IMG/VR virus record: IMGVR_UViG_3300030098_005070
From: an uncultured virus (IMG/VR IMGVR_UViG_3300030098_005070)
Lineage: Duplodnaviria > Heunggongvirae > Uroviricota > Caudoviricetes
Direction: 5' to 3' (one strand)
Length of the DNA: 36,111 nucleotides
Below the pieces are notes generated by a model. It worked only from the letters and a program-made list of their open reading frames with translations. It was not told where the DNA came from and made no database searches. The position numbers were made by a program, and so were the translations under genes. This document shows positions 4,218 through 25,500 of this stretch, one piece after another (position 1 is the first letter of the stretch; each line of letters begins with the position of its first letter).

Positions 4218-5945
4218 TTATGCTCCACGAGGCCTTCTAGAGTCTATCAAAGCGTTAGAAACGTTCTGTGCTAAAGTTGGGTCGCCACCTCTTTGTTGGA
4301 CACTTGAGACTGGTGAACCCGAACCTGCGGTTGCTCTTCTTTCAGGAGAGGCTGGCCCTCTAGGAGTTCTTAGACCGACCCCTTCGCCACCGGGCTGTGA
4401 ACCGGGCATCACTCGTTGCATTACTTGCGGAGGGACTCCTTGCGGAGGGACTCCTTGTGACATTCCTCCTTGTGGCGGCATACCTGTCATAGGTGGCGCT
4501 CCACCAACAGGTTGTGGTTGCATTTCAGCACCTTCTTGTTTTCGATAAACGAATCTAATATCACGCTTTCCTTCTTCTAATAATTCAGGCTGATAACCTA
4601 ACATCATCATTCTTTGTGCCAAGTTAGCCTCCATCTCATCACGGCGTAGTCTAGTAATTTCGTCTTCTTCTTCGTTTGGATACAATGTTAGTTTCCAATC
4701 GTAAACATTCATTTCCTTTAGCATACGAGGGAATAGAACCTCAGTGTACACTTTCTGTCCAAATTCAACTGCTCTATTGGTAACTAAGATTTGCATACCT
4801 TCGTTGTTCAGCCCACCTGATTTACCATTATCAATCATAAATATAGCACTCACACCATAATAAGCGGCTATTCTGTTACGAATTTCATCTCTTACGGCGA
4901 TATACTGCATCTCTTCAAGAGTATCCATGAACTTAACCCAGTTCACACCGCCACGGCCTGAAGAAGATTCAATACCGACTTTAGGAACATAGTGTGGGTC
5001 TCTTTCCATCTTTTCATCAACAGACTTCCAAAAAGACTTCATTGATTCAAGATTATCTGTGGTAACCGAAATAATACCTTTTGGAATTCTTCGTTTTTGA
5101 TAAGCAGTGTACATATAATTGTCCATTGCGGTAAGAGTCATTGCTTGTCTCCACATTGTATTTACTGGACTCTTTCCGTAAAGTTTGGAAGGATTGTACT
5201 TACTTATGTGGATAACTTCTCCCTTGATGTAATATTGAGTTTTTCCACTCCCAGCCATATTGACGTAGTGAGCGTCTTCCATTTCTGAGCCGCAGACTTG
5301 ACACTTATCTTCTTGACCGGGATAAGAAACTTCACTTCTGTGAAGTGGACACACCTTGTACCTTCCACCACGAACACCTCTCTTATCTGCTACAATTCGC
5401 ATAAATATGGGGTCACCACGCATGATATCTTTCACACGATAAAACTCTATTTCACCACTATCAGGATTGACGTAGTACTCTTTTATGAGAATTAAGAATG
5501 CATCATCTACAATGTTAAGGTCGTTTTCAATTTCTTGAAGGACATTCATAAATGACTGTTCCATACTGTTTTCTTGCTTTAACAACCACTTGGGGTAGAT
5601 AATTTCCTGAGCATCCGGTCCTCTAACTTCCCCCTCACACAATTTACAAAAATCTACAGAATGTTGGTATTCTTCACCACAATCAACACATTTCTTTTCA
5701 AATGACTTTTCCCAGTAATATCCCCTTCGGAACACTTCTTGGCTTAATTTAGATAAAACTGTCCTCAAAATTAAATTTTCACGAGATACAGCATATAGCG
5801 CTGGTAGCGTAATCCCTTGAGCGAGAACAGGCTCTTGAATACCAGTTGTGTAAAGAGGCATCTGTGGTTGTGGAGTAGTCCTCCTTCGGAAAGGGGCAGA
5901 AAGGGCTGAAAGAAATCTACTCACTCTACTATCATCATCTGCCAT
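4218..5945 (-). CDS. Probable portal protein with Zn-ribbon-like insertions
   Basis: About 575 aa, downstream of the terminase. Portal-like segments (IENDLNIVDDAFLILIK; IHISKYNPSKLYGKSP; IRNRIAAYYGVS) and a P/Q/G-rich C-tail. Start placed at ATG 5945, overlapping the upstream TGA. Confidence 0.8.
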   Translation of the reverse strand: MADDDSRVSRFLSALSAPFRRRTTPQPQMPLYTTGIQEPVLAQGITLPALYAVSRENLILRTVLSKLSQEVFRRGYYWEKSFEKKCVDCGEEYQHSVDFCKLCEGEVRGPDAQEIIYPKWLLKQENSMEQSFMNVLQEIENDLNIVDDAFLILIKEYYVNPDSGEIEFYRVKDIMRGDPIFMRIVADKRGVRGGRYKVCPLHRSEVSYPGQEDKCQVCGSEMEDAHYVNMAGSGKTQYYIKGEVIHISKYNPSKLYGKSPVNTMWRQAMTLTAMDNYMYTAYQKRRIPKGIISVTTDNLESMKSFWKSVDEKMERDPHYVPKVGIESSSGRGGVNWVKFMDTLEEMQYIAVRDEIRNRIAAYYGVSAIFMIDNGKSGGLNNEGMQILVTNRAVEFGQKVYTEVLFPRMLKEMNVYDWKLTLYPNEEEDEITRLRRDEMEANLAQRMMMLGYQPELLEEGKRDIRFVYRKQEGAEMQPQPVGGAPPMTGMPPQGGMSQGVPPQGVPPQVMQRVMPGSQPGGEGVGLRTPRGPASPERRATAGSGSPVSSVQQRGGDPTLAQNVSNALIDSRRPRGA

Positions 5946-7168
5946 CACAATCCCTCCGACCACTTAGCGATATCATCTGAACTACAATCCCATTCTTGCA
6001 ACAAGGAGTCGGCTTTCAAAGCATCATCTTTCCAGTTGTTATACCTCACGACCCGCTGCAATTCTGTCTTACGAAGAGGGTCGCCTTCATGGATATATTG
6101 CAAAACCGCCTTTGCTTGAACGTCTTTCATTTTTAGATGTGGAAGTATAGATTTTAGTAATTTCTCAATATCACTTTTAGAGTAAAATTGTAATCTATGT
6201 TGGGTTCTATTACTATTTTTAGATATTTTTTGGTCTAATTGTAAAACCCCACAATCTAGAGTTTTGTGTAATTGCTCACAATGCGACCTACCTCTTTGCC
6301 CAGTCGCAACGAAACCGGCTCTTGGTTCACCACGACCTGTAATTGTAATGTAGCCGTCAGCATCTAAGAAACCCGCTGCATAAGCAAACGGGTCTTTCAG
6401 AATAAGGCCATTTTTATCCATCTTTACAAAAGTGCCCTTTTTTGCACCCTGAGTTACATCAACTTCTTCCCCATACATTTGAAGCAATTTTGATAATTTA
6501 GAAGCAGTCATACTTTTATGGAGAATGTTATCATCTGTAAGAGACTCAAATATAGCACGAGAACCCATTGGTCCATTCTTTTGAAGAACTTCTGCGGATT
6601 TTTCTATAGTTTCACGGTCTTTTTGATTTAATTTATCTATTTGATGAAGAGATGTTTTCCACATTTTTCGGGCATCAGTACGCATTTTCATAGCACTAGC
6701 CCATGCATTTTGCTCTTCTTCTCCCCAAACATCTTCAAATTCATCTAAAGTTTTGAGAGTTTCATCTGCTTTTTCCCAAAGCAAACAAGCCTTGACGAGT
6801 CCGACTTCTCTAGAATCTGAAAATCTTCTTAGACTTTTCAAATCTCTATCGCTTAATCCTAAATTACGAAGTGTTTGCTGTCGCTCTTCTGCCCACGGAA
6901 TTTGATTCAATGTAGCCTCTACTTCTAACCTTTTAAGTAATCTAATATCAGAAATTACATCGTCAATATCGTATTTTGCATCTTTGTGAATTCTTCGCAT
7001 TTTGCGTAGTTTATCCACAAAATCAGCAGCACTACACCCTAAATGTGTCTCAAACCAGCCCTCTCCGGTATTAGAAAAGAATGATTGTTTTATTACCACT
7101 GGTGTTTCTTTTTCGGGTTGAGATTTCTCAATAGGATAAGAGTCTTCAAGAAATGCGCTACCCCACAT
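5945..7168 (-). CDS. Protein with C-terminal LAGLIDADG endonuclease-like domain
   Basis: YAAGFLDADGYI motif near residue 265 and a LAGLIDADG-like tail (LLKSILPHLKMK); about 250-aa helical N-terminal region of unknown function. Confidence 0.8.
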   Translation of the reverse strand: MWGSAFLEDSYPIEKSQPEKETPVVIKQSFFSNTGEGWFETHLGCSAADFVDKLRKMRRIHKDAKYDIDDVISDIRLLKRLEVEATLNQIPWAEERQQTLRNLGLSDRDLKSLRRFSDSREVGLVKACLLWEKADETLKTLDEFEDVWGEEEQNAWASAMKMRTDARKMWKTSLHQIDKLNQKDRETIEKSAEVLQKNGPMGSRAIFESLTDDNILHKSMTASKLSKLLQMYGEEVDVTQGAKKGTFVKMDKNGLILKDPFAYAAGFLDADGYITITGRGEPRAGFVATGQRGRSHCEQLHKTLDCGVLQLDQKISKNSNRTQHRLQFYSKSDIEKLLKSILPHLKMKDVQAKAVLQYIHEGDPLRKTELQRVVRYNNWKDDALKADSLLQEWDCSSDDIAKWSEGL

Positions 7169-7254: not shown

Positions 7255-7560
7255 TCAACAGTTCCACCTCTTCAATGCTGCACCTTTCGGTGTTAATTTA
7301 CCCTTTTTACTTGTCGGCCCTTTAACACCAGTCATACGTGCACAGAACGACTTTCGCCTTTTTGAAGCCTTGCTACCACGTTTGAGTTTACTCGGTTTCT
7401 TAGTTACAGGTCTTTTGAGATTAGCACCTGTCGTTCTTTTGAAATGTGCTCGCCCTTTAGCACTCAAACCACCAGTCTTTGCGTGTTTCTTAGGATTATA
7501 TCCATGAAACGGCTTCTTTTTAGATTTCAAAAATTCCCAACTTTCCTCAAATGCATTCAT
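7255..7560 (-). CDS. Small very basic phage protein (DUF6321-like) with AWxxLK-type leader
   Basis: GGLSAKGR...NLKRPV...RRKSFCARM...ALKRWNC pattern recalled from a phage family; N-terminus MNAFEESWEFLK. Confidence 0.7.
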   Translation of the reverse strand: MNAFEESWEFLKSKKKPFHGYNPKKHAKTGGLSAKGRAHFKRTTGANLKRPVTKKPSKLKRGSKASKRRKSFCARMTGVKGPTSKKGKLTPKGAALKRWNC

Positions 7561-7568
7561 TTAATCAC

Positions 7569-9044
7569 CTACGGTATCATCCAACTTGAATTTGCTTTTG
7601 TAGCCCCACCATACCAATCGTCAATGCCCGGTAAAACGTCGTCAAGAAGTACAACTGACCCTTTGAATTCTTTAGTAGCCCAATTTGCTAAAGCGATACT
7701 CATTGCCAAGTCATCATGAGTACCGACACTTTCTAGACGACCATTTTTCTGCATACCAAATCGGTTTAATTCTTGTTCTAATTTATGAGTATATTCTCGA
7801 CTCTTCTCATCACCATATGGTGTTTTGATGTGGCCTTGCTCAAAGGCTAGTAACAAAGACATGAATAGAGATTCTTTCTTTGTACGAGTTGTCATGAACA
7901 CCTTAATCGGCATATCAGCAGCCATTTCCCTCATTTCTGCTTCAAGCATACGTTGGAAATTGTTACCTTCTAATTCTATTAAATCAGGTTGAAATCTATT
8001 ATTCAAAACAACCATCATTCTTTTTTGCGCCATAGAAGACATTCCCCTTTCATGTACCACATGGACAATTTGTTTTACATCTTCATCAGGTAACATACGC
8101 ATAACAGTCATGGCAGTAAAGTCAGCGTTCTTATCAGAAGAAATTGCAGGGTCATGACCTATGAAATGCTGACCCCATACCCCATCAGGCTCTCCTTCTT
8201 CATTATAATTTGATTCTGCTCTTTCCATAAGAGTCAAATTTTCATCTCTAGCCATTTCTAAAATGTCCATTGGGAACATACTCGCTACATCATGAATCGG
8301 TTCACACAGATACTCACGGCTAAACTGAATCGCTGGCATGGATAGTCTTCGTTCTTCTAACGCTTCAAGATTCCATCTAGAAGGCCAAAGCGCCTCTCCT
8401 TTGGTATTTATTGCGGGATAAGTCTCAACAGTAAAAGTCTCTTTCTTTTCTAATTCAGCGTATAAGTCGTTGTATGAGAAAGGTGTACCTACCATCATCA
8501 AGCGACTAGAATGGTGGAGAACAGGTAGTAAAACACCGTAAAACCAATCTGCTGCTCTTTGCAACTCAGTTCCAGTAGTACCCCAAAGAATATCATCACA
8601 AACTACAACATCAGGGTGGAAACCACGAGTAGCACCACCAACGGACTTAGCCATAATACGAGAGCCATTTGAAAACTCAAAGTAAGATTTAGCCCACGGT
8701 TTTCCTTGTGGTTTTAATGAACGAAGGCAATCAGCCCCTTCAATATTGTTTCTAATAAAACGCATATGTTCAAGAGTTTGTTCCAAAGAATGTGAAAAAA
8801 TCATTATATGTGTGCCGGGATTAAAAGCCGCTAACCAAAGAGCATAAGACATGAAAAATACAGATTTACCGTGGTCACGAGACGCTTTAACGCAATAATA
8901 TCGGTTAGAATCTAACCCTTTACCCCATTTTTCGTGATGCCAACTTAACTCAAAACCTAAGATTTCTGTAAAAAAATAATCGAATGACTTCTTGCTCATT
9001 TCCCTATCCATCTGCTGGATAAAGTCTTGCATATCTTCAGCCAT
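7569..9044 (-). CDS. terL: Terminase large subunit
   Basis: Walker A (ASRDHGKS), Walker B (RGFHPDVVVCDD), motif VGTP, RNase H-like nuclease residues (GHDPA, D-F-T, HDDLAMS). Confidence 0.95.
   Translation of the reverse strand: MAEDMQDFIQQMDREMSKKSFDYFFTEILGFELSWHHEKWGKGLDSNRYYCVKASRDHGKSVFFMSYALWLAAFNPGTHIMIFSHSLEQTLEHMRFIRNNIEGADCLRSLKPQGKPWAKSYFEFSNGSRIMAKSVGGATRGFHPDVVVCDDILWGTTGTELQRAADWFYGVLLPVLHHSSRLMMVGTPFSYNDLYAELEKKETFTVETYPAINTKGEALWPSRWNLEALEERRLSMPAIQFSREYLCEPIHDVASMFPMDILEMARDENLTLMERAESNYNEEGEPDGVWGQHFIGHDPAISSDKNADFTAMTVMRMLPDEDVKQIVHVVHERGMSSMAQKRMMVVLNNRFQPDLIELEGNNFQRMLEAEMREMAADMPIKVFMTTRTKKESLFMSLLLAFEQGHIKTPYGDEKSREYTHKLEQELNRFGMQKNGRLESVGTHDDLAMSIALANWATKEFKGSVVLLDDVLPGIDDWYGGATKANSSWMIP

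Positions 9045-9802: not shown

Positions 9803-9810
<8 letters not shown>
9049..9810 (-). CDS. Ala/Gly/Gln-rich hypothetical virion protein starting MSKVLVLK
   Basis: ATG 9810 has a GGTGA RBS; low-complexity composition. Confidence 0.7.
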
Positions 9811-12006
<2,196 letters not shown>

Positions 12007-12010
<4 letters not shown>

Positions 12011-13203
12011 GCAGTTCTACCTCCACGACCTACATCATGCCCAGTAGAATCTAAGCCGAAATGCCTTGGGTCAGTCTTAGCATCTTCCGTTGCACCCTCC
12101 GGTCGTGTGGTTTGTTTTGGTCCATTTTCAGGATGTTTTGGAAGATTTGAGCCTCCCCCACCTGTATCTTTAGTACCGTATCCTTTCTTCTTTTGCTCCT
12201 TTTCTCTCAATAATTTCTTGGTTCTATTCAATAAGTGTCGTAATTCTTGAACAGTAGCCCAATCATACCTCTTTTGAATATCACTTCCTTTGAAATCATC
12301 AAAACTCATAGCGACTTGAGATGCCCCACTCATAGCGAGATGTGGTGCTCCTGCAATAGTGGGTGGTTGAATTGGTGGTGGTCTATGTGGTTTTAGTTTG
12401 GGTTTTGGCATTCCTCTTGTTGAATACCCATACCCTTGAGTAATTTGTGGGGTTATAGGTTGTGTTCTAATTTGACCTTGTTGTGCACGAGAAGCCTGTT
12501 GTGCTTGGAATTTTTGATATTTACGAGGGTCTTCTAATCGCATTGGTTGTTTTGTTTTGATACCGCGGTGACTCATCTCTACAGCAAGATGCGCTCGACC
12601 AAGACCTGTTTTCTTTGAGCCACCTAATGAACGACTAAGCGCTTTGGCTCTTCTAGAAGTTGCACTTTTAGGACTGTATCCACCTTTTGGTTTTTTGAAA
12701 TCACCAGTGCTCGGCTTACCTTTTGCTCTAGCCTCCTGCTTCATTCTTTTTTCTCTTTCTTTTTTGGAGGCTTTGAGTAATTCAGACCAAGCGTGTTCCA
12801 TCGGCTCGCTCATAGCGACCATTTCTCCACGAGCAGCACCCGGTCCTTTTGCGCCACCAGCGAGACTTGAAAGATAACCAAAATTACCAGCAGCGCCAGT
12901 CTGAGAATGTAACTCACGGTCAGCATCTATTTTTTCTGAATCATCACGGTCTTCTTCTTCATCTTCGTCTTCTTCAAACTCTCTAAGCATCTTAGGTTTA
13001 ACCTTGATATGCTTGCGAGATTTCTCTTTTTTCTCCTGCTCTTCTTTTTTCTTTTGTTTCTTCTCTTTTTCAGCGTCAGCATACCTTGGGTCTGAAGGAG
13101 AATAGTTGTCTTCTTCACCATTATTTCTGAACATATATGACGATTCTGACCTAGGATTGTAGATTCGGGTATCAGAACCCCTTCCCATCATTCCTTCAGT
13201 CAT
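12007..13203 (-). CDS. Highly charged, probably disordered protein (acidic N-half, basic C-half)
   Basis: Start placed at ATG 13203; internal EHAWSELLKA motif separates the acidic and basic halves. Confidence 0.75.
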
Positions 13204-13609
13204 AGATAGAATCCCCCATGATGTACATCGAAGAGCGGTATAGCGCACTGGCTATGTCTTCATAAAAGTCTTGAATGGAAGAAGGGCTTGTAAAACACTT
13301 ACCCATCTTAGATAATTCATCTTGAACAAGGGGAATTGTCTTCCTTAATTCGGCCCTAACATGGAAAACAATTTCCGGCTCATCTGTTTCACAAAGTGCC
13401 CTTAACATCTCTATCAAGTCAACAATTTGGTCGCCAAAATGCAAACCATATTCTGACCTTTCAACGTATGAATTGAATTTTTGAAATACAAGAGAAACAT
13501 AATCTAAGAAAGTTGGAAGTTGTTTTTCATTTATGATTGGATAATTATTTAGAAGTTGGAAACCGGGGTGGTTTGAAACAAATAACTCATCAATGTAAAT
13601 CGGCCTCAA
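13196..13609 (-). CDS. Hypothetical protein
   Basis: 3' part of the track ORF; likely start TTG 13609 after GGGGTGA (GTG 13618 also possible). Confidence 0.6.
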   Translation of the reverse strand: MRPIYIDELFVSNHPGFQLLNNYPIINEKQLPTFLDYVSLVFQKFNSYVERSEYGLHFGDQIVDLIEMLRALCETDEPEIVFHVRAELRKTIPLVQDELSKMGKCFTSPSSIQDFYEDIASALYRSSMYIMGDSIYD

Positions 13610-18158: not shown

Positions 18159-18240
18159 AATCCAATAATCCGATGTATAGTATATACATAAGATATAATA
18201 TGTATGTAAAGTCTATATTATACATTAGACAAATTGGATT
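18159..18240. repeat. AT-rich imperfect inverted repeat (element A)
   Basis: Left arm AATCCAATAATCCGATGTATAGTATATAC; reverse complement of right arm AATCCAATTTGTCTAATGTATAATATAGAC. Confidence 0.75.
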
Positions 18241-18949
18241 ATTGGCTTCTGAGAGTTCCACGACCTTTGAAATGCCTAGCCCGGTTTGCGTGTTCACTCT
18301 CAAGGGTTAATTTCCCACCTTGTGTATGACTTACATCCATATGGTCACCTGACCCATAGATGCCCCTGCGCCGTCTCTCGCGATTTAGTTCCTCTCGATA
18401 TTTTACTCGTTCCGGGCTAGACTCGTATTTTTTGTCGTATTCCAACTTATGCTGCTTGGCTTCAGGAGATTTACGTTCTTTAAGAAAATCAAATGCTTTT
18501 TGAAATTCTGTTAATGATGTTTGAGTTGTAGAAGAATCAGCAGGTTTGGGTGTAGGCTGTGAAACCGGCTTTTTGAACCACTTATCGGCAGTAAGCGGGC
18601 TAGTAGTAGCACCTTGAGTTAAAGATGAAGGTAGTTTTTGTTGTTCTTTTACAATAGTAGGTTTTCCACCGACACCTTGTTTTTTGGCTCGTTTTCTTTT
18701 AGTAGCCGCTTGTTTTTGTCCTGAAGACATTGAGCCGCTTGTTTTAGGTGTTTCACTACTTACTTTAACAGAAGGTCTACATTTTGGGTATCCTTTACTA
18801 GATGTTTTTGCTTTACTTCTTCCACAAGGAGGGTGCTTACCATCCTTATCTTTTCTACTAACATCCACCCACTTTTCTTTGAACCAACGGTTCAAGTTCT
18901 TAATTACAAGAACATCATGGCAGGTGCAACGGTCAGTCATTTTACTCAC
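18239..18949 (-). CDS. Two-domain basic protein: DUF5872-like N-domain and HNH-like C-domain
   Basis: LNRWFKEKWVDV...CGRS...YPKCRP; S/T/P/Q linker; AFDFLK; then GSGDHMDVSH...NRARH. Family names come from motif recall. Confidence 0.65.
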   Translation of the reverse strand: MSKMTDRCTCHDVLVIKNLNRWFKEKWVDVSRKDKDGKHPPCGRSKAKTSSKGYPKCRPSVKVSSETPKTSGSMSSGQKQAATKRKRAKKQGVGGKPTIVKEQQKLPSSLTQGATTSPLTADKWFKKPVSQPTPKPADSSTTQTSLTEFQKAFDFLKERKSPEAKQHKLEYDKKYESSPERVKYREELNRERRRRGIYGSGDHMDVSHTQGGKLTLESEHANRARHFKGRGTLRSQ

Positions 18950-19340
18950 TCTTCTTTTGATTTTTCTTGGAAACTTCGTTTTCTGTTATTGGTCCACCTG
19001 CTGCCCAAGTGTAGCAGGTTCTATCTTTGTGGCACTTGAAATGATGCATCCAACAATAACCCAAGTCACCTTCTAACGGCATACATTTTCGCATTCTTGG
19101 GCTAATGTCAAAAGCAATACAGTTACTGCAATTAGAGTTCTTAGCAACATCAACTGTTGTGTTCCAATGCTCTGCTGCTTTAACCCAGTAATCTTCATCA
19201 GATAGATTAAGGGGACCATATTGAATATGTTCTGAATGTATAGCGTCATTACGATTTTTGGTGTTAAGTTCTAAGTCGCGTGTGGCTCTTGGACAAGCCC
19301 CTCTCTCTTTAATAACCGACCAAGCCATTTCAAGAGGCAT
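18942..19340 (-). CDS. Cys-rich metal-binding phage protein with AWxxIK leader
   Basis: Start placed at ATG 19340 (MPLEMAWSVIK); CSNC...C...GYC...KC...TC pattern. Confidence 0.7.
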   Translation of the reverse strand: MPLEMAWSVIKERGACPRATRDLELNTKNRNDAIHSEHIQYGPLNLSDEDYWVKAAEHWNTTVDVAKNSNCSNCIAFDISPRMRKCMPLEGDLGYCWMHHFKCHKDRTCYTWAAGGPITENEVSKKNQKKSE

Positions 19341-19344
19341 GAAT

Positions 19345-19536
19345 TCATTTCTTTTTTCCACCCTTTTTCCCCCTGAATTTCCCACGACAGTATTGGACCG
19401 CCCACCCATTTGCATAAGCAGATGGATAAACTTTGAATTTTCTTTTAGCAGCGGCTTTACCTTCAGGACACAATTTTTTGTACAAACCATCCCATACGGT
19501 ATCCATTGCGTGGCAATGGCCGCATTCACAAGTCAT
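19345..19536 (-). CDS. Small basic protein with YPSAYAN motif
   Basis: KRKFKVYPSAYANGW; N-terminal CECGHC and degenerate leader DTVWDGLYK. Confidence 0.7.
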   Translation of the reverse strand: MTCECGHCHAMDTVWDGLYKKLCPEGKAAAKRKFKVYPSAYANGWAVQYCRGKFRGKKGGKKK

Positions 19537-19545
19537 TTTACCACA

Positions 19546-19965
19546 TCATTGTATTTTCAAGATAGTCCACGCAAAGTCAAAAGCCTCAGACCTTCGTATG
19601 ATTGGAGCACCAGCGGCAGGAGGTAATTCTCCCTGAACCACCGTAGGTCTTGGAGCAAAAATTTGCCTTCCTCTCTCCAAGGATGCCGCCTCTCGTGCCG
19701 CTCTTTGCCTTTCTAATTCTCTTTGCCTAGACAAAGCCCCACCCGGAGTCGGCATTCTACCGACTCTCGCTCTTTCAGCAGCATAAGTAGGTGAGAGTGT
19801 CGCAGTTCCTTCAGGCATTTCGCCTAAATGAGATAGAGTTTCCATTTTCTCCTTTTTATCTTTATCAGGAGTAGCAGTTTCTGTAGGCTTTTTTGGGCTA
19901 GGTTTGGTTACTGAAATGACTAAGGCCATTCCGGGCTTTTTCTTATCTTCAGGCATCGCGGTCAC
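19546..19965 (-). CDS. Hypothetical protein ending in an AFDFAWTILK motif
   Basis: Coupled ORF; the leader-type motif sits at the extreme C-terminus. Confidence 0.65.
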   Translation of the reverse strand: MTAMPEDKKKPGMALVISVTKPSPKKPTETATPDKDKKEKMETLSHLGEMPEGTATLSPTYAAERARVGRMPTPGGALSRQRELERQRAAREAASLERGRQIFAPRPTVVQGELPPAAGAPIIRRSEAFDFAWTILKIQ

Positions 19966-20218
19966 GCTCCATCATTAATCTTGCAAGTTGAGACATTTTT
20001 GAATTCTTTTTCTCTTCTTCATCTTTAATTTCAGGTTTTTCGGTTTCACCGGGGTCGGATTCTGACCTTCTCCTAGCGACAGACATTTTTCCAGCACGAG
20101 AAGTACCCGGTGGGAAATCTGATTCACGAAGTTCAGCAGGGTTTCGATAGGGGTCATCAACTTCGTCATACCATGCTTTTTTCAAAGAATCCCATGCTAA
20201 ATCGAATGCTGTTGTCAT
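19949..20218 (-). CDS. Hypothetical protein with AWxxLK leader
   Basis: MTTAFDLAWDSLK. Confidence 0.7.
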   Translation of the reverse strand: MTTAFDLAWDSLKKAWYDEVDDPYRNPAELRESDFPPGTSRAGKMSVARRRSESDPGETEKPEIKDEEEKKNSKMSQLARLMMERDRDA

Positions 20219-20454
20219 CGTTGTCTTGCCACCCTTACTAATCCGGTTTGTCTTCTCATTTTTGGTCTAACTGCTCCTCTCGCCAAGTCCCGCTTGTACT
20301 TCGCTTTGGCTTTCTTGGTTTTAACCTTTCTCGCCATCCTTTGGACTTTGGCCTGTGCTACCTTTTTTGGTCGCTGAGAAACATAAGATTCTTTCTTGTA
20401 TCCGAATTGACCTTTCAAAAGGTCATAACAAAGAGAGAACTCTTCTCCACTCAT
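20215..20454 (-). CDS. Small very basic protein
   Basis: K/R-rich; degenerate leader EFSLCYDLLK; ATGA-coupled to the next gene. Confidence 0.65.
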   Translation of the reverse strand: MSGEEFSLCYDLLKGQFGYKKESYVSQRPKKVAQAKVQRMARKVKTKKAKAKYKRDLARGAVRPKMRRQTGLVRVARQR

Positions 20455-20513
20455 ACAGAACGGGCCAAAGGAGAAACAGTAAGTTCTTAGATATCTCCCT
20501 TCTTCGACCGGTC

Positions 20514-20873
20514 ATGAGTAAGGTGTTAGTGCTGAAAGCCGCCCCAGCACTAGCCCTTGCCGCACCAGCAGCAACAGGTGGTGCGATGACCACTACTGGT
20601 GCGGCGACAGGCGCAGCACGAATTGGTGCAGGTGCAGGTGCTGGCGCAGCAGCAGGGTCGAAATCTGCTCTTTCAAGGACAATGGGTGCTGGTGGTTTAA
20701 TTGGAATTTTAAATAAACCAAAAGAAATGGCTTCAAAAGAAACTCCTTTTGGAAATGAGCAACAAGTGGCTCAAAAAGAAGCAGAAAATAGGGCAGCGTA
20801 CCAGCGATTAGCCGGTGAAACCCGCCAATTAATGCGAGAAGGGGTTAATATTAACACCACGCAATTTTCGTGA
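20514..20873 (+). CDS. Ala/Gly-rich protein starting MSKVLVLK; lone plus-strand gene in the late block
   Basis: ATG 20514; first 8 aa identical to the 9810 protein; 3' end overlaps the HMG-CoA lyase gene by 45 bp. Confidence 0.65.
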   Translation: MSKVLVLKAAPALALAAPAATGGAMTTTGAATGAARIGAGAGAGAAAGSKSALSRTMGAGGLIGILNKPKEMASKETPFGNEQQVAQKEAENRAAYQRLAGETRQLMREGVNINTTQFS

Positions 20874-21761
20874 GATGTATCTTCTTGCTCTTTCTGCAAG
20901 TGGAATTTTGATTACTGATTGTAAATAAACTTCAGCAGCCTCTAGTTTCGCATTGTCTATTTTTTGCTCAAGTGGAATACCGTAATCATTCGCCCAGTCT
21001 ACTGCGAATTGAGTAGACAAGTTTCCAAAACTTCCCGGCACGAATGGGCAACCGCCCAGTCCCCCAACACTACAATCGAACTCTCTAACACCGGAAAGAT
21101 ATGCAGCATTGAGTAAATCCTCAAACCCAACACGTTTTGTTGAGGGCTTGTGAAAGTGAACAGCAACATTATCGAACACAGTTTTCGCTAACTTGATTTT
21201 TTCAACTGCAATTTTTGGAGTTGTGGAGCCATCGGTGTCTGCCAGCACAACTGTACCTACTTTTCCACTGCACCAGTTTAAAATTTCAATAAATGAAGCC
21301 TCATCATAGTCTTCAAACGGGCTAGAAAAGGCACAACTGATGTAAGCCCGAATAAAAGAAGGCGGCATTCCTAGAATTGTTTCTTCATATCTCTCAAAAA
21401 TTCGGTCTAATGACGGTGTTCCGAGATTTCGGGCGTTAAATTCGCCGGAAGGAGAAAAATAGATGTTGTAATATTCTATTTCTGTCTCTAAACCGCGCTC
21501 TAATCCTTCTCTATTGGGTACTAAAGCCGCAATTTCAGGTACAATATCGAGATTTTCAACGAGTTTAGTAAAAACCACGTCTGTATCTCTCATTTGTGGT
21601 ACGATTGCTGGGTGAACAAAACTTCCAATCTCAATTTTATCTAACCCAGCCTTGATTAGCATCTCCGCTAAGGCCACTTTTTGGTCCGTAGTGACCTCTT
21701 TTTCGATTGTTTGTAAGCCATCCCTCATTCCTACTTCGTAAAGTCGGATTGAGTCAGCCAT
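20829..21761 (-). CDS. Hydroxymethylglutaryl-CoA lyase family protein (DRE-TIM metallolyase)
   Basis: EVGMRDGLQ, IEIGSFV, LADT, HFH metal ligands, GGLGGCPF...GNLST; start placed at ATG 21761. Confidence 0.9.
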   Translation of the reverse strand: MADSIRLYEVGMRDGLQTIEKEVTTDQKVALAEMLIKAGLDKIEIGSFVHPAIVPQMRDTDVVFTKLVENLDIVPEIAALVPNREGLERGLETEIEYYNIYFSPSGEFNARNLGTPSLDRIFERYEETILGMPPSFIRAYISCAFSSPFEDYDEASFIEILNWCSGKVGTVVLADTDGSTTPKIAVEKIKLAKTVFDNVAVHFHKPSTKRVGFEDLLNAAYLSGVREFDCSVGGLGGCPFVPGSFGNLSTQFAVDWANDYGIPLEQKIDNAKLEAAEVYLQSVIKIPLAERARRYISRKLRGVNINPFSH

Positions 21762-21774
21762 GTAACCCCGGAAG

Positions 21775-21954
21775 TTACCTTTGCAAATCAACATATCGGG
21801 CGAAAAGCATCTCTGCCTCTTCTTGTAGAGCAACGTCACCACTGTTCATCATTTTCACTAGGGTCGTGAAGATAGTATTCTTCTCTTCCAAAGAAAATGT
21901 AAGACCCGATGGCTGTGTTTTAAGCAAAAGCCATGCCTCATTAAAAGCGGTCAT
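21775..21954 (-). CDS. Small protein with AWxxLK leader
   Basis: MTAFNEAWLLLK, 59 aa. Confidence 0.65.
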   Translation of the reverse strand: MTAFNEAWLLLKTQPSGLTFSLEEKNTIFTTLVKMMNSGDVALQEEAEMLFARYVDLQR

Positions 21955-22125
21955 CAGTAAAAACCCCACACATGGTATATAAATAAACCCTTCTTAGCCC
22001 CGACATTATGATATCCGAGGCTTTTATGGGGTTAATTATGGGGTCAATCAAAAAACAACTGTGGGATTTATCGCACTGGGTTTTAGTGATTGGAGTTTCG
22101 ATTTCACTGTACTTTATCGAAGAAT

Positions 22126-22596
22126 CTATCTTCGTATTTTTATCTTAGGCGGCTTGTACAAACCCCTTCTCCAGTTCGGGTCTTGTTTCCAATCCGGTTT
22201 TTCCGCACCAGTCTTTTCTCTACGAGCATCCCAAAATTTTTCGGCGGCTTCAGTTTGGCTGACCGCCTCATCAGCGACTGGTAAACCTGTGACTTTTTCG
22301 GCATGGTCGTACATATCGGTCGCAATACCTCCTCTTCTAAAAGCAGGTTGCACTTGAGCAGTACGTGGAACTAATTTATCGTCATGAACGTAAAAACTGG
22401 CAGTTCCATAGTTCATTGGTTTTTGGTCATAAGCCTCTAACCCTTGAGTTGCTGCTATGTTTAGCACATCAGGGCCATGCTCACCTCTTGGGAGAATGGA
22501 ATGCTGCATATAGAATTCTTCAGGGTCGCCATAATATGGGAAATCAGGCTTTGGCGGCATCTTGAGAATCTGCCATGCTCGGTCGAAGGGATTCAA
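22126..22596 (-). CDS. GNAT-like acetyltransferase with AWxxLK leader
   Basis: MNPFDRAWQILK; motif A-like VQPAFRRGGIATDMY; QTEAAEKFW. Confidence 0.65.
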   Translation of the reverse strand: MNPFDRAWQILKMPPKPDFPYYGDPEEFYMQHSILPRGEHGPDVLNIAATQGLEAYDQKPMNYGTASFYVHDDKLVPRTAQVQPAFRRGGIATDMYDHAEKVTGLPVADEAVSQTEAAEKFWDARREKTGAEKPDWKQDPNWRRGLYKPPKIKIRR

Positions 22597-23240
22597 AATC
22601 TAAAACCTCCACGCTTAATTCGCTCTTCTTCATCAAGCCGATGTTGACGATATGAATCTGCGGCAGGGTTCTTCACTTTCACTCTTTCATCATCACGTGC
22701 TTTTCCCCATTCATGAGAATGACTTACCGTAACCAACGGATGCCTCAAAGCCTCGGCAGGGTCATGCCTTGAAGCCATTAGTTCATGGACTAACTGTAAT
22801 TGAACCATAGGCTTAACATCCCCTTGTTCAAGACTTGCTTTTGCATCTTTGTAAGCAGCAATCATTTCAGGTGTATTCTGTATAGCCTCATGTGTACCTT
22901 CATGGGCAGCAGTATCTATGACTCCTTCCATTAGGTCTTGGTCATATTTCTTATCATAAGCATCCCAAGTGGTATTTCTAAAATCATCAATCTTGGGGTC
23001 ATAGTTTACACCAAAACGACCATGACCGGGTGAATAGTCACCCGCCTGTTGATACCAACTGTCATGTGCTAAGTTAATTCTACCTACAGAATTACCTGTT
23101 TCATCCAAGTCATAGAAGCCCCTTGGCATACTTGAAATTGGCACAGGGTAATGTTCTATCTCATCCTTAAATGGGCTATCTTCTGAATCTAGAAGGAAAT
23201 CTGTTTTGAGCAACGCCCATGCTTGGTCGAAGGGGTTCAT
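22593..23240 (-). CDS. HExxH-containing protein (possible zincin) with AWxxLK leader
   Basis: MNPFDQAWALLK; AAHEGTHEAI with a downstream HE; GGTGAT RBS. Confidence 0.6.
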   Translation of the reverse strand: MNPFDQAWALLKTDFLLDSEDSPFKDEIEHYPVPISSMPRGFYDLDETGNSVGRINLAHDSWYQQAGDYSPGHGRFGVNYDPKIDDFRNTTWDAYDKKYDQDLMEGVIDTAAHEGTHEAIQNTPEMIAAYKDAKASLEQGDVKPMVQLQLVHELMASRHDPAEALRHPLVTVSHSHEWGKARDDERVKVKNPAADSYRQHRLDEEERIKRGGFRF

Positions 23241-23245
23241 TTGTA

Positions 23246-23803
23246 TCACCTATAGTCCAAATCCTCAGATAATTCCGCCATAGCAGCATCTTCCCTATCT
23301 TTGATTCTCAATGCTTTCTCCCTTTCCTTTTTCCATTCTGTTAACTTATTATACACTGGTTTTGGGGCATCGGGACCAAATCTTCTCTCAAACTCAACCC
23401 CTCTAGCGTCATTTTCTTCCATAGCCCTAGATGGTATTTCGGGTTGTATCCTGTTAGCGAAATCAGCAGATTCTACACTTGGTTGTAAAGTTCTCGTTTC
23501 AATTCTAGTTGGACTGTAAAGACCCATAAACTCAGCCAACATTCTAGTTTTATCTAAATCACTGAACTCTTCATCGTCATCGCCCCAGTCTCCATCTAGT
23601 ATCCTTGCGTAATCTGCTATGTTATTGTAATTCTCACTAATATCGTCATCAATTTTTCGCCTGTGCAGTTCTACGTGTCTTTGTGTATATGGAACCTCTA
23701 CTTCCACATCTTCATATTGGGGTTTGAGAAAGCCCTGTATTCTTGGGTCATCTTCGGGATACTGCCCCTTAAGCAAAGCCCACGCTTGGTCGAAGGGGTT
23801 CAC
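23246..23803 (-). CDS. Acidic hypothetical protein with AWxxLK leader
   Basis: GTG start, MNPFDQAWALLK. Confidence 0.75.
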   Translation of the reverse strand: MNPFDQAWALLKGQYPEDDPRIQGFLKPQYEDVEVEVPYTQRHVELHRRKIDDDISENYNNIADYARILDGDWGDDDEEFSDLDKTRMLAEFMGLYSPTRIETRTLQPSVESADFANRIQPEIPSRAMEENDARGVEFERRFGPDAPKPVYNKLTEWKKEREKALRIKDREDAAMAELSEDLDYR

Positions 23804-23931
23804 AATTTTCCCCCCGTATAGACTGAAAGCAAGAAATTAGTCATAAATTGCGAGAAACTTATCGCCCCGAAAAGAAATCCGGTCACGGCAAACGGGCCGA
23901 CCACGATGAGTGCTAACACGGCCCAATCCAT
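23800..23931 (-). CDS. 43-aa hydrophobic microprotein
   Basis: Hand-translated MDWAVLALIVVGPFAVTGFLFGAISFSQFMTNFLLSVYTGGKL; fills the gap and overlaps the next start (GTGA). Confidence 0.6.
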   Translation of the reverse strand: MDWAVLALIVVGPFAVTGFLFGAISFSQFMTNFLLSVYTGGKL

Positions 23932-23940
23932 TTTATCACT

Positions 23941-24789
23941 TCAATCGTAACGAATAAACCTCGGTCTTTGTGCCGTATTCTCTTCCATTGCTTGACGGGC
24001 TTGCCGGTTTCGTTCTTGGATTTGCATAATCTGTGCTTGCTCTTGAGTTACAAAATTTCTTGAACCGGGAGGATATTCGACCATATCTATGATTTCTTCT
24101 TTGAGAAATTTCCAAGATTTTAAAAATTCAGGATTTAACGCCGGGTCATGATTCGGGTCTGATATTAGCGTTTTTGCATAGTTAGGATTATCATGTTCTA
24201 TAGCCCATAAATAATCTTTATTTCTGTAATAATAATCATATTTTGCGTCTTTGTAATCTCTTTCGCTCATAGGCTGTCCGGCTAATTTGAAAGTTTCAAG
24301 AGATGGGAATGGTATAGTTCTTTGAAACAATGAGTCATACCCTGCACTTCTTTTATCATAGTGATTAAAAATATCAATTTCGTGTTTTGCACTTCTAACA
24401 GCATCATCGTAACCGGGTGGGTAATCGGGATTACGAAAAGAATTAACTTCATCTGAATGCGCTTCGGGCCTAGGCATTCTCTCAGTCATAACTCCAGCGT
24501 TGAAGGTTTTCGGTTCATTAAATCGTTTATCCTTCCAAGGAGGTAATGCGACTTCTTGTATAGTGTCTTGTGCCGATGGTGGTTTTTGGAATAAAGGGGG
24601 TGTGTAATCGTAATCCCCCTCTTCTCCTGTAGGGTCTTCTAAAAGTGTAGCAGTTTCCGGTTCTTTTGTGGGTGCAGGATACATTCTATTTCCCGGTATT
24701 TTAGAGGCAGTTTCTCTAAAACCTTGTATCGAAGGATGGTAATACTCGCCTTTTAGCAGATTATCCCATGCTGCATCGAAGGCGGTCAT
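23941..24789 (-). CDS. Hypothetical protein with AWxxxLK leader
   Basis: MTAFDAAWDNLLK; second motif-like FLKSWKFLK near the C-terminus. Confidence 0.75.
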   Translation of the reverse strand: MTAFDAAWDNLLKGEYYHPSIQGFRETASKIPGNRMYPAPTKEPETATLLEDPTGEEGDYDYTPPLFQKPPSAQDTIQEVALPPWKDKRFNEPKTFNAGVMTERMPRPEAHSDEVNSFRNPDYPPGYDDAVRSAKHEIDIFNHYDKRSAGYDSLFQRTIPFPSLETFKLAGQPMSERDYKDAKYDYYYRNKDYLWAIEHDNPNYAKTLISDPNHDPALNPEFLKSWKFLKEEIIDMVEYPPGSRNFVTQEQAQIMQIQERNRQARQAMEENTAQRPRFIRYD

Positions 24790-24794
24790 GGTAA

Positions 24795-25277
24795 TCATCC
24801 GAATCTGTGCGCTTCGCCATTGATAGTTGGAGTGTAGTCACCGCCGGATAAATTATACCCCTCAATCGGCACTCTATCGTCATAATGCTTCTCATCATAC
24901 GCTCTTCTGTTGAATTCCGGCCCTTGGGCTATTGACCTTCCATGTAGGGGACTTGAAAAATGCCCAAGACTTCCACTACTAAGGCCTCGCTTTGCTGCTC
25001 TTTCATCTTCCGCGATTCTAGCATCATCATCTCTACCCATATCTAGGTTCAGATTAGGTGGAGTTCTATCTCCTATCGCTCTATTCCTTGCTAACATTCC
25101 CATTATTACAGGGTGAACAGTACCTAGCGACCTCGCACCGTACCTATCAATTTCGGGATATTTGGCATATTCCTCATATCCTTCATCTCCTGCATTTTCT
25201 CTAGGAGTTCGCTCAACGAACATTTGCTGTTCGGGCAGTGCTTTGAGTACAGACCACGCTGCATCGAAAGCGTCCAT
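24795..25277 (-). CDS. Hypothetical protein with AWxxLK leader
   Basis: Start placed at ATG 25277: MDAFDAAWSVLK. Confidence 0.75.
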   Translation of the reverse strand: MDAFDAAWSVLKALPEQQMFVERTPRENAGDEGYEEYAKYPEIDRYGARSLGTVHPVIMGMLARNRAIGDRTPPNLNLDMGRDDDARIAEDERAAKRGLSSGSLGHFSSPLHGRSIAQGPEFNRRAYDEKHYDDRVPIEGYNLSGGDYTPTINGEAHRFG

Positions 25278-25278
25278 C

Positions 25279-25500
25279 TTATTCCTCCCTCCTAGCGGGG
25301 CATTGATGATGATACAGATAGAAATCAACCTCGTCCGCATATTCTTCGGGCGAAAGAGCATCTTCCGGTGTGCTTGTCCCCCGAATGTTCTGCCTTATTT
25401 GATAACGAACCGCTTCTTCGGCATCAAAACCACAAAGAGGACACACACCATAGATGTCATATTTGATTACAGACCACGCTGCATCGAAAGCCTCGGACAT
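25279..25500 (-). CDS. Small Zn-finger-like protein with AWxxIK leader
   Basis: MSEAFDAAWSVIK; CPLC ... HHQC. Confidence 0.7.
   Translation of the reverse strand: MSEAFDAAWSVIKYDIYGVCPLCGFDAEEAVRYQIRQNIRGTSTPEDALSPEEYADEVDFYLYHHQCPARREE

What the first reader, a model, noticed from the sequence alone, without database searches (positions are those of the whole stretch)
18942..25500. Shared N-terminal 'AFDxAWxxLK' tag on at least 10 unrelated proteins: candidate capsid-targeting/processing system
Seen: otherwise dissimilar ORFs start with one motif. 25500 MSEAFDAAWSVIK; 25277 MDAFDAAWSVLK; 24789 MTAFDAAWDNLLK; 23803 and 23240 MNPFDQAWALLK; 22596 MNPFDRAWQILK; 21954 MTAFNEAWLLLK; 20218 MTTAFDLAWDSLK; 19340 MPLEMAWSVIK; and 7560 MNAFEESWEFLK next to terL. 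Degenerate versions occur at 20454 and 19536. Similarity stops right after the Lys, and I saw no copy in the early block. Established: T4 internal proteins share a short N-terminal capsid-targeting sequence removed by the prohead protease. Inference: this amphipathic helix ending in L/I-K is an analogous address label and cleavage site that loads variable cargo into the head of a probable archaeal virus.
Basis: partly seen in the sequence, partly recalled or inferred. Interest (0 to 1): 0.9.

Follow-up and report, generated by a model that had tools for sequence, protein, structure and literature searches.

The report
Shared 12-residue tag on viral proteins
A marine archaeal-type tailed virus puts the same 12-amino-acid helix in front of many unrelated late proteins, most likely as a removable label cut by the capsid protease and perhaps used to load those proteins into the virus head.

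Summary
A peptide M-x-[P/A]-F-[D/N]-x-A-W-x-[L/V]-L-K starts 8 clear and 3 to 4 degenerate minus-strand ORFs. It also lies inside three ORFs and at the C-terminus of one. A strict pattern gave 11 hits against 0 in 200 shuffles. Codons vary synonymously, so the peptide is what is conserved. The sequences after the Lys are unrelated: 10 of 10 window cargos fall in different BLAST clusters, and 102 cargos from relatives form 46 clusters. The window belongs to a family of 100-115 kb magrovirus-like viruses with thermosome, PolB, RFC and XPF genes, and all ten large relatives tested carry the tag on the late strand only. New here: in relatives the tag also sits at every module border of 'beads-on-a-string' ORFs. 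Its last residues ([W/F]-x-[L/I]-L-K) recur as the only invariant residues on both flanks of the HK97-type (S78) prohead protease domain, and as SELLK at residue 34 of the major capsid protein. HK97 protease cuts after Lys. Best reading, about 0.45: a propeptide and linker cut by the prohead protease after L-K, probably doubling as an encapsidation signal like the T4 capsid targeting sequence. Cleavage and packaging are both inferred, not shown.

The parts
25279..25500 (-). Tagged ORF, 73 aa, MSEAFDAAWSVIK followed by a Cys-rich cargo
   Evidence: 15.3 bits
24795..25277 (-). Tagged ORF, 160 aa, MDAFDAAWSVLK; GGAGG-like Shine-Dalgarno sequence upstream of this ATG; the 'ALPEQQ' cargo family is also tagged in relatives
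23941..24789 (-). Two-module ORF, 282 aa: N-terminal tag MTAFDAAWDNLLK plus an internal tag EFLKSWKFLK (24100-24129). The second module aligns tag-to-tag with a stand-alone tagged 66-aa protein of locus L009
   Evidence: 46% identity, E 1e-12
23246..23803 (-). Tagged ORF, 185 aa, GTG start, xNPFDQAWALLK, acidic cargo
22593..23240 (-). Tagged ORF, 215 aa, MNPFDQAWALLK. Cargo has invariant H113-E114-x-x-H117 and E125 (zincin-like signature); the tag is present in all 12 other aligned sequences (11 database homologues plus the G002 homologue)
22126..22596 (-). Tagged ORF, 156 aa, TTG start, xNPFDRAWQILK
21775..21954 (-). Tagged ORF, 59 aa, MTAFNEAWLLLK
20829..21842 (-). Untagged HMGL-like enzyme gene lying inside the tag cluster
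   Evidence: PF00682, E 1e-17; no tag
20215..20454 (-). ORF, 79 aa, degenerate tag MSGEEFSLCYDLLK, very basic cargo
   Evidence: loose regex only
19949..20218 (-). Tagged ORF, 89 aa, MTTAFDLAWDSLK
   Evidence: 9.1 bits
19546..19965 (-). ORF, 139 aa, with the tag at its C-terminus (..EAFDFAWTILK-IQ-stop; tag at 19555-19587). The next gene starts 3 codons later in the same frame
   Evidence: 10.9 bits; same layout in G002 (..AFSLAWNLLK-SE-stop)
19345..19536 (-). ORF, 63 aa, phrog_27331 domain; weak tag-like stretch AMDTVWDGLYK at residues 10-20
   Evidence: the resemblance was read by eye and not scored
18942..19340 (-). ORF, 132 aa, degenerate tag MPLEMAWSVIK, Cys-rich cargo
   Evidence: 1.8 bits
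18239..18949 (-). Two-module ORF, 236 aa: DUF5872 domain, then an internal tag-like EFQKAFDFLK (18479-18508), then a phrog_6437 domain. This corresponds to the last module of the G002 960-aa multi-module ORF
12007..13248 (-). Conserved ORF of the structural module, 413 aa, with an internal tag SEPMEHAWSELLK (12772-12807) about 150 residues from the N-terminus. Homologues in G002, L003, L005 and L006 carry it at the same place; the L006 homologue has three copies
7255..7560 (-). Tagged ORF, 101 aa, MNAFEESWEFLK followed by DUF6321, next to terL
   Evidence: DUF6321 homologues in 53 phage records; in the 40 rows listed the match never starts before query residue 11
7569..9044 (-). Large terminase (context: late, morphogenetic strand)
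4218..5963 (-). Portal protein (context). The prohead protease and capsid genes lie beyond the window's left end; they were seen in the syntenic relative G002

Best explanation
The motif is a self-contained 10-12-residue amphipathic helix (P/A-F-D-x-A-W-x-L-L-K) followed by a Pro/Asp/Glu/Gly-rich linker. In this magrovirus-like lineage it has been placed in front of dozens of unrelated late proteins. I propose that it is a propeptide and linker recognised by the virus's HK97-type (Peptidase_S78) prohead protease, which cuts after the final L-K. In single-module genes this would remove a 12-residue N-terminal peptide. In multi-module ORFs it would separate the modules. That protease family acts inside the procapsid, so the substrates would have to be inside it too. 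The N-terminal half of the helix (F4, A7, W8) would then serve as the encapsidation signal and the C-terminal half (L10, L11, K12) as the processing site. This is the division of labour reported for the T4 capsid targeting sequence. Shown: the motif, its peptide-level conservation, its restriction to the late strand, the unrelated cargo, its positions at module borders, and the matching invariant L-K motifs around the protease domain and in the capsid protein of relatives. Inferred: cleavage, the protease responsible, encapsidation, and delivery into the host.
For: (1) The motif is real and selected as a peptide.
(2) It is specific to the late strand and to the lineage. All 30 profile hits of at least 9 bits in the window, G002 and G006 lie on the late strand. 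Five of 5 tag-retrieved records and 5 of 5 capsid-retrieved large records carry it on one strand, with 0 control matches. Only 2 matches turned up in the 596-billion-base prokaryote genome collection, and neither sits at an ORF start.
(3) The cargo is unrelated and changes fast. 102 cargos form 46 clusters. Between the window and its syntenic relative G002, the flanking structural genes match at 24-80% identity, but only 3 ORFs in 18.2-25.5 kb match at all.
(4) Two cargo domains occur without the tag in cyanophages and pelagiphages: phrog_6437 and DUF6321. The tag therefore looks like an add-on.
(5) G002 has a 960-aa ORF with an N-terminal tag and four internal copies of G-E-P-M-[D/N]-I-A-F-Q-L-L-K at residues 279, 494, 665 and 877. 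A 352-aa ORF has two internal copies. A window ORF contains as its second module a protein that stands alone with its own tag in L009. Copies that stay conserved after fusion argue for a function at internal positions, which fits cleavage.
(6) In 41 protease-scaffold sequences, L18-K19 are the only invariant residues in the otherwise variable first 23 residues. F168, I170, L171 and K172 are also invariant. The two sites bracket the Pfam S78 match, residues 22-173.
(7) The capsid protein has G-S-E-L-L-K at residues 29-34 in 80 of 80 sequences, and the same S-E-L-L-K ends the internal tag at 12772-12807.
(8) HK97 protease cuts its capsid protein at K103/S104 (PMC10275583, passage).
(9) In the T4 CTS, residues 4 and 7 direct targeting and residues 8 and 10 direct processing. 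T4 internal proteins share only the CTS (PMC9026906 and PMC3012670, passages).
(10) Pro is common at P2' and P3' (17 and 11 of 65), and the next 28 residues are rich in P, E, D and G.
Against: There is no proteomic, structural or experimental evidence that any tagged protein is cut or is in a virion.
The window itself does not contain the protease or capsid genes. They were read from relatives with 73-80% identity in portal and terminase.
The capsid N-terminus is conserved throughout its length in the 80 close relatives, so SELLK conservation there does not discriminate. That segment may simply be part of the mature N-arm.
[L/I]-L-K is a short motif. In G002's 37,373 residues the 5-mer [FW]-x-[LIVM]-[LV]-K occurs 19 times, of which 7 are outside tags and only one of those is the protease-scaffold junction.
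C-terminal copies followed by only 2 residues make little sense as pure cleavage sites.
N-terminal tags sit at a rigid distance from Met (M exactly 3 codons before F in 67 distinct N-terminal tags), which pure cleavage does not require.
Every tag-bearing genome tested also encodes a chaperonin (G002, plus 5 of 5), so co-occurrence does not single out the protease as partner.
Confidence: 0.45

Rival explanations
1. The motif is a processing signal only. The protease recognises and cuts it to separate modules or to activate proteins, as in polyprotein or zymogen maturation. The proteins are not loaded into capsids, and the helix has no address function.
For: Internal copies sit at every module border of multi-module ORFs. 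The tag's end resembles the L-K motifs flanking the protease domain.
Against: Prohead proteases of the HK97 and T4 types act inside procapsids (background in PMC9026906), so their substrates are normally encapsidated. The invariant F4 and W8 lie 4 to 8 residues upstream of the putative scissile bond. The protease's own sites lack them (I-S-[L/I]-L-K), so they seem unnecessary for cutting. C-terminal copies followed by two residues are hard to explain.
Confidence: 0.15
2. The motif is a docking helix for a different common partner and is not cut. Candidates are the virus-encoded thermosome-type chaperonin, the portal, the conserved P-loop protein at 16446-17159, or a host factor.
For: All six tag-bearing genomes examined encode a Cpn60/TCP1 chaperonin. 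A title in the reference list of PMC10052503 (the paper itself was not read) states that the T4 head protein N-terminus directs proteins to GroEL. N-terminal, internal and C-terminal positions are all compatible with a binding helix.
Against: Many cargos are short, highly charged or basic and look disordered, which makes them unlikely chaperonin clients. The capsid protein, the expected main client, lacks the F-D-x-A-W part. This reading does not explain why the tag ends in the same [L/I]-L-K that brackets the protease domain. The magrovirus paper places the chaperonin gene in the replicative block (PMC5434244).
Confidence: 0.15
3. The tag is mainly a recombination handle. A conserved stretch at gene starts lets cassettes be swapped by homologous recombination, and the peptide itself has little function.
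For: Tag DNA is often nearly identical between genes and genomes. For example, ATAGCCTTCCAGTTGCTCAAG recurs in the internal copies of G002, and near-identical versions (1 mismatch) occur in L002 and L003. The tagged region is the most variable part of the late operon. Mobile cassette boundaries are known in T4-type phages (PMC2839356, title and abstract only).
Against: Conserved residues are encoded by several synonymous codons: Ala7 by GCG, GCA and GCT; Leu11 by six codons; Lys12 by AAA and AAG. F4, W8 and K12 are invariant while codon third positions vary. Start codons and Shine-Dalgarno sequences differ between genes. Shuffling may be a side effect, but it does not explain the peptide constraint.
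Confidence: 0.05
4. It is an ordinary paralogous family whose N-terminus is the only part still recognisable.
For: Some cargos do form small families, with clusters of 8, 7, 4 and 3.
Against: The cargo set includes domains with independent, untagged homologues in bacteriophages: DUF6321, phrog_6437 and DUF5872-adjacent modules. There are 46 clusters among 102 cargos, and no consensus after K12.
Confidence: 0.03

Closest known systems
T4 capsid targeting sequence (CTS) of internal proteins IPI, IPII, IPIII and Alt
   Same: Both are short N-terminal propeptides (10-19 residues in T4) and the only element shared by otherwise diverse, fast-evolving proteins. In T4 the N-terminal part targets and the C-terminal part is the prohead protease site (PMC9026906 and PMC3012670, passages). 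Here the tag has hydrophobic residues at positions 4, 7 and 8 and a conserved last residue. One widespread cargo family in relatives gave a weak ADP-ribosyltransferase-like lead, which recalls Alt.
   Different: There is no sequence similarity. The protease here is Peptidase_S78 (HK97 type), not T4 gp21. The putative P1 residue is Lys, not Glu. The tag also occurs internally, at the module borders of multi-module ORFs, and at C-termini. The host is archaeal. Nothing has been shown experimentally.
HK97 prohead protease gp4 and its substrates
   Same: The relatives encode an S78 protease directly upstream of the capsid gene. HK97 cuts after Lys at K103/S104 (PMC10275583). Invariant L-K motifs bracket the protease domain here.
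   Different: HK97 processes its capsid scaffold domain, and I know of no set of tagged cargo proteins in HK97. In this virus the scaffold is fused to the protease rather than to the capsid protein.
P1 DarB N-terminal capsid localisation signal
   Same: It is an N-terminal signal (first 30 residues are sufficient; residues 6-10 are critical) that directs a protein into a capsid matured by an HK97-like protease (PMC9024508, passages).
   Different: That signal is described for one protein, not as a conserved tag on dozens. There is no sequence similarity, and no polyprotein arrangement.
Prohead-protease propeptides of jumbo phages (SPN3US, phiKZ)
   Same: Many head and ejection proteins lose N-terminal propeptides at a shared cleavage motif, and the protease cuts itself (PMC10052503, passages).
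   Different: Those propeptides are mostly long (111-254 residues) and share only a 3-residue motif, not a conserved 12-residue helix.
Encapsulin cargo-loading peptides
   Same: Short terminal peptides on unrelated cargo bind the inside of an HK97-fold shell. This description is recalled, not taken from any call.
   Different: They are not cleaved, they work in non-viral compartments, and the motif is different. Binding could not be assessed here.

Membership tests
T4-type capsid targeting sequence | Short N-terminal peptide shared by otherwise unrelated late proteins | tested here: met
   invariant M1, F4, W8, K12; 46 cargo clusters among 102 cargos
T4-type capsid targeting sequence | Peptide is necessary and sufficient for encapsidation | not testable with these tools
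   Needs reporter fusions in an assembly system
T4-type capsid targeting sequence | Removed by T4-type prohead protease (gp21 family) after Glu in an L/I-x-E site | tested here: not met
   The tag ends in L-K. The only head protease found in the relative G002 is Peptidase_S78 (111 proteins scanned)
Substrates of HK97-type (Peptidase_S78) prohead protease | The virus encodes an S78 protease in its head module | tested here: met
   Found in G002 and in 5 of 5 further tag-bearing records. The gene lies outside the window itself
Substrates of HK97-type (Peptidase_S78) prohead protease | The site resembles the protease's established sites (capsid N-terminus, self-cleavage sites) | tested here: inconclusive
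   Invariant L18-K19 and F168-x-I-L-K172 bracket the S78 domain, and the capsid protein has SELLK at residue 34. None of these sites is experimentally established in this virus
Substrates of HK97-type (Peptidase_S78) prohead protease | Observed neo-N-terminus after the site in mature particles | not testable with these tools
   No proteome is available
Prp/L27-type N-terminal extension (staphylococcal phage 80alpha capsid and scaffold; recalled) | A Prp-family cysteine protease is available to cut the extension | tested here: not met
   No Prp-like family among the Pfam matches of 111 G002 proteins. The host proteome was not examined
Encapsulin cargo-loading peptide | The peptide binds the interior of the HK97-fold shell protein | tested here: inconclusive
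   The only test tried gave no verdict (see Tried and rejected)
Magrovirus-like archaeal tailed viruses | Linear genome of about 100 kb with an archaeal-type replication module, a chaperonin and a halovirus-like head module | tested here: met
   G002 (115,554 bp, syntenic with the window) has thermosome, PolB, RFC-like ATPase, XPF, an S78 protease and an SU10-type capsid protein. This matches passages of PMC5434244. No phylogeny was made

The most novel reading that the evidence does not exclude
These abundant marine archaeal viruses use one 12-residue helix as a universal plug-in address. Any protein that acquires it, alone or strung together as cleavable beads in a polyprotein, is loaded into the procapsid, trimmed by the HK97-type protease after L-K, and delivered into the Poseidoniales host with the DNA. 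The tag would then mark the whole repertoire of injected effectors of an uncultured virus group: zincin-like, ADP-ribosyltransferase-like and basic DNA-binding modules, and dozens of unknowns. It would be the first capsid-targeting system described for archaeal viruses and for the S78 protease lineage.
Probability: 0.35. Interest if true: 0.8.

Novelty: new variant of a known kind. Interest (0 to 1): 0.62.

Why it matters
Magrovirus-like viruses are among the most abundant archaeal viruses in the surface ocean, and neither they nor their hosts are cultured (PMC5434244). Most of their late genes have no recognisable function. A sequence tag that marks protease-processed and possibly virion-packaged proteins would sort dozens of orphan gene families into one functional class, candidate injected effectors, from sequence alone. 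It would also give a precise predicted cleavage site that can be checked in viral metaproteomes. It would show that the 'address label plus protease site' solution known from T4 arose independently with a different protease family in an archaeal virus. Finally, it offers a compact, portable tag for loading foreign proteins into HK97-type capsids. I found no description of the motif. Three literature searches listed none. Term searches found 0 occurrences of 'N-terminal' in the two magrovirus/Poseidoniales virus papers; 'motif' has 0 occurrences in PMC5434244 and 2 in PMC11706807, both about a helix-turn-helix domain. Supplements of those papers were not read.

Tried and rejected
1. Complex prediction with capsid protein, protease-scaffold and a tagged 40-mer, each given as an alignment: no verdict (score 0.01, the mark is 0.32). 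This is not evidence either way.
2. AlphaFold2 of the HExxH cargo 22593-23240 with 13 sequences: mean pLDDT 46, too poor for a fold search, so none was run. The tag was modelled as a helix (residues 3-17) but at low confidence.
3. Internal 'G-E-P-M' as a hidden Shine-Dalgarno sequence plus ATG, meaning nested in-frame genes instead of a polyprotein. The internal copies lack the GGAGG/GGTGG element that lies about 6-10 nt upstream of nearly all true tagged starts. I consider this unlikely but not excluded.
4. PCNA-interacting (PIP-box) or other known short linear motif: compared by eye only, and the spacing of Q, aliphatic and aromatic residues does not fit. Not tested with a tool.
5. Solved-structure searches, to see where mature homologous capsid or protease chains begin: one weak capsid hit (6j3q, E 0.0075) covering only the core, and no protease hit. 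Uninformative.
6. Halovirus literature on capsid N-terminal processing: nothing usable in what I read.
7. Co-variation between the tag's end and the protease and capsid sites in more distant relatives: all keep Lys and [L/I/V] before it, so there was no variation to test.
8. Earlier findings of this scan: nothing held.
9. No whole genome is held for the window. The nearest held record, G001, is a 61-kb fragment with no tag match.

Full report
**Observation.** The window's minus strand from about 25.5 kb down to 1 carries a late, morphogenetic operon. It includes the portal (4218-5963) and large terminase (7569-9044). Positions 25.9-36.1 kb on the plus strand form a separate block with ArdA and DUF932.

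A strict pattern, [AP][FM][DENQ]x[AS]W-x(2,3)-[LI][KR], matches 11 times in the six-frame translation. All 11 are on the minus strand, against 0 in each of 200 dinucleotide shuffles. A loose pattern gives 19 matches against a shuffle mean of 4.2 and maximum of 10.

Conserved residues are written with several synonymous codons. In 67 N-terminal tags from the window and relatives, Ala7 uses GCG, GCA and GCT, Leu11 uses six codons and Lys12 uses AAA and AAG. Start codons (ATG, GTG, TTG) and Shine-Dalgarno sequences differ from gene to gene. The peptide is therefore what is conserved, not the DNA.

Past the Lys, the sequences are unrelated. Ten of 10 window cargos fall in different BLASTP clusters. 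Sixty-five aligned 40-mers have invariant M1, F4, W8 and K12, near-invariant A7 and L11, and no consensus afterwards. The next 28 residues are rich in Pro, Glu, Asp and Gly, and Pro is the commonest residue at P2' and P3'. The tag is thus a discrete amphipathic helix (hydrophobic face F4, A7, W8, L11) followed by a linker.

The motif also occurs inside ORFs, at 12772-12807, 18479-18508 and 24100-24129. It also occurs at the C-terminus of ORF 19546-19965 (..AFDFAWTILK-IQ-stop). The internal copy in the 24789 ORF precedes a module that aligns, tag to tag, with a stand-alone N-terminally tagged 66-residue protein of another virus (46% identity, E 1e-12). The internal copy at 18479-18508 separates a DUF5872 domain from a phrog_6437 domain.

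**The virus and its relatives.** No genome is held for the window. IMG/VR holds a large family of relatives, and a capsid-protein search estimated about 950 stored stretches. The complete 115,554-bp record G002 is syntenic with window positions 1-18.9 kb at 24-80% protein identity. In 18.2-25.5 kb, the tag region, only three ORFs match, so this region is the variable part of the operon.

G002 encodes a thermosome subunit, PolB, an RFC-like ATPase, XPF, terminase and portal. It also encodes a 455-residue Peptidase_S78 protease fused to a scaffold-like tail, followed by an SU10-type capsid protein. This fits the published description of magroviruses of Marine Group II archaea (passages of PMC5434244). 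That paper does not contain the words 'N-terminal' or 'motif' in its main text.

A back-translated DNA pattern of the tag hits 5 of 5 tag-retrieved records (26 matches) and 5 of 5 large records chosen only by their capsid gene (11 matches). Matches always lie on one strand per record, with 0 matches to the reversed control pattern. A stricter pattern found 28 stretches in 25 viral contigs. It found only 2 in 596 billion bases of prokaryote genomes, and neither is at an ORF start. By my own estimate from the pattern's information content, about one match is expected by chance.

A profile built from the tags gives 30 hits of 9 bits or more in the window, G002 and G006, all on the late strand.

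**Census.** Across the window, loci L001-L034, G002 and G006, a permissive pattern gave 116 non-redundant hits, a few of them obvious chance hits. They fall into three groups:
- 81 are N-terminal. In 67 distinct N-terminal tags the Met lies exactly three codons before Phe.
- About 20 are true internal copies of a distinct subtype, (G/S)-E-(P/A)-M-(D/N/E)-x-(A/S)-(F/W)-x-(x)-L-L-K.
- A few are C-terminal.

G002 has a 960-residue ORF that starts with the tag and repeats the internal form at residues 279, 494, 665 and 877. Its last module is the phrog_6437 domain, which the window encodes in ORF 18239-18949. A second G002 ORF has two internal copies. The conserved structural-module protein homologous to window 12007-13248 always carries the motif about 150 residues from its N-terminus, and one relative has three copies.

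The cargo domains DUF6321 and phrog_6437 exist without any tag in pelagiphages and cyanophages. DUF6321 is found in 53 phage records, and in the 40 rows listed the match never starts before query residue 11. phrog_6437 is found in 8 records, and one was read: it starts with an unrelated basic N-terminus. The unit of evolution is therefore 'tag plus module'. Modules are gained, fused and split, and the tag stays conserved even when it becomes internal.

**Link to the prohead protease.** In 41 protease-scaffold sequences (58-80% identical to G002), the first 23 residues vary in both length and sequence. Only L18 and K19 are invariant, as in ..ISILK|GAN..SIGLLK|AGN..NIQLLK|SSN and, in more distant genomes..IAIVK|SSS. 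A second invariant block, F168-x-I170-L171-K172, follows the conserved core (..ATF[S/R/K]ILK|ED). The Pfam S78 match spans residues 22-173, so the two L-K motifs bracket the protease domain.

The tag ends in W-x-[L/V]-L-K and its internal form ends in F-[Q/R]-L-L-K, the same five-residue pattern as the junction. The capsid protein has G-S-E-L-L-K at residues 29-34 in 80 of 80 sequences, and S-E-L-L-K also ends the internal tag at 12772-12807.

HK97, the type S78 system, cuts its capsid protein at K103/S104 (PMC10275583). In T4, the CTS is a 10-19-residue propeptide in which residues 4 and 7 target and residues 8 and 10 direct processing. The protease also has a cleavage-type motif near its own N-terminus, and the internal proteins share only the CTS (PMC9026906 and PMC3012670). 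The parallel with F4/A7/W8 and L11/K12 here is close in logic, but there is no sequence similarity.

**Mechanism proposed.** The tag is a propeptide and linker cut by the S78 prohead protease after L-K. Because that protease works inside the procapsid, the helix probably also brings the cargo there. Cleavage, the enzyme and encapsidation are all inferences.

**Weak points.**
- The [L/I]-L-K core is short. In G002, [FW]-x-[LIVM]-[LV]-K occurs 19 times: 12 in tags, 1 at the junction and 6 elsewhere.
- The capsid N-terminus is conserved along its whole length in the close relatives sampled, so SELLK there does not discriminate.
- C-terminal tags followed by two residues, and the rigid Met-to-Phe distance, fit a binding helix better than a mere cut site.
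- All six genomes checked also encode a chaperonin, so a chaperonin-docking role is not excluded.
- Near-identical tag DNA between genes may also promote cassette exchange, as a side effect.

**Cargo.** Window ORF 22593-23240 has 11 database homologues. All keep the tag and an invariant H-E-x-x-H..E signature, which is zincin-like. Its AlphaFold model was too poor to use. The commonest cargo family in relatives is not in the window. It starts ..RQSTLGEYHPDF.. and contains Y-H-G-T and G-V-Y-A motifs. It gave only a weak lead to PARP and Tox-ART clusters (score 0.92, 127 shared features, below the level the tool calls reliable). Other cargos are short and very basic (DUF6321, 20215-20454) or Cys-rich. 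An untagged HMGL-like enzyme gene sits in the middle of the cluster.

**Comparison and novelty.** The system works like the T4 CTS, but it fails the membership features that define that family: a gp21-type protease and cleavage after Glu. It is best filed as a new variant of the known kind 'capsid-targeting propeptide removed by the prohead protease'. It occurs in an archaeal virus lineage with an S78 protease, and its multi-module, tag-delimited ORFs are an additional feature. Three literature searches and term searches in two magrovirus/Poseidoniales virus papers found no description of it. Supplements were not read.

**Verdict.** The best explanation has a confidence of 0.45. Interest is 0.62.

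Noticed in passing
window 9049-9819 (-) and 20514-20873 (+): Two otherwise different proteins both start M-S-K-V-L-V-L-K followed by an Ala/Gly-rich stretch. The second lies on the opposite strand, inside the tag cluster. G002 has a counterpart, likewise on the strand opposite to its late genes, with ..SVLVVK-GKLG.. This may be a second shared N-terminal peptide ending in [L/V]-K.
   Followed up: partly
window 3477-3815 (-): The C-terminus of this 112-residue protein next to the portal (..EEIHEMSWEDIHEMA..) resembles the extreme C-terminus of the protease-scaffold protein of G002 (..EDLAKMSWDEVHNLA..). Pairwise E is 3e-4, and the same region gave a second weak hit in G007. It could be a shared capsid-binding tail, which would make this a second scaffold-like protein.
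   Followed up: partly
window 5945-7168 (-): A 407-residue ORF between terminase and portal has a LAGLIDADG-like stretch (..GFLDADGY..) and a PHROG 'HNH endonuclease' match at residues 259-368. It is conserved at about 60% identity in G002 and G006, so it is a fixed resident and not a sporadic homing element.
   Followed up: no
L035-L040 (G002) 88525-105075: The relative G002 has a single open frame of 5,516 residues downstream of the head genes. It contains two [FW]-x-L-L-K or V-L-K matches. [quoted passage not shown] The window stops before this region.
   Followed up: no
window 28114-28677 and 33824-34846 (+): The early block encodes ArdA (antirestriction) and DUF932, families typical of bacterial conjugative elements. 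G002 has an ArdC-like zincin in its early region. This is unexpected company for an archaeal-type replication module.
   Followed up: no
L037:8473-8946 (G002) and homologues in L001, L002, L005, L010, L011: This is the most widespread tagged cargo family (..RQSTLGEYHPDFPSP..YHGT..GVYA..GIREG..). It shows an H-Y-E-like motif pattern and a weak atlas lead to PARP and Tox-ART clusters. It is a possible packaged ADP-ribosyltransferase and is not present in the window.
   Followed up: partly
window 16446-17159 (-): A conserved 237-residue protein with a P-loop (..GTSMVGKTT..) sits in the late operon between small membrane-like proteins. It is 68.5% identical to its G002 counterpart and has no family match.
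   Followed up: no
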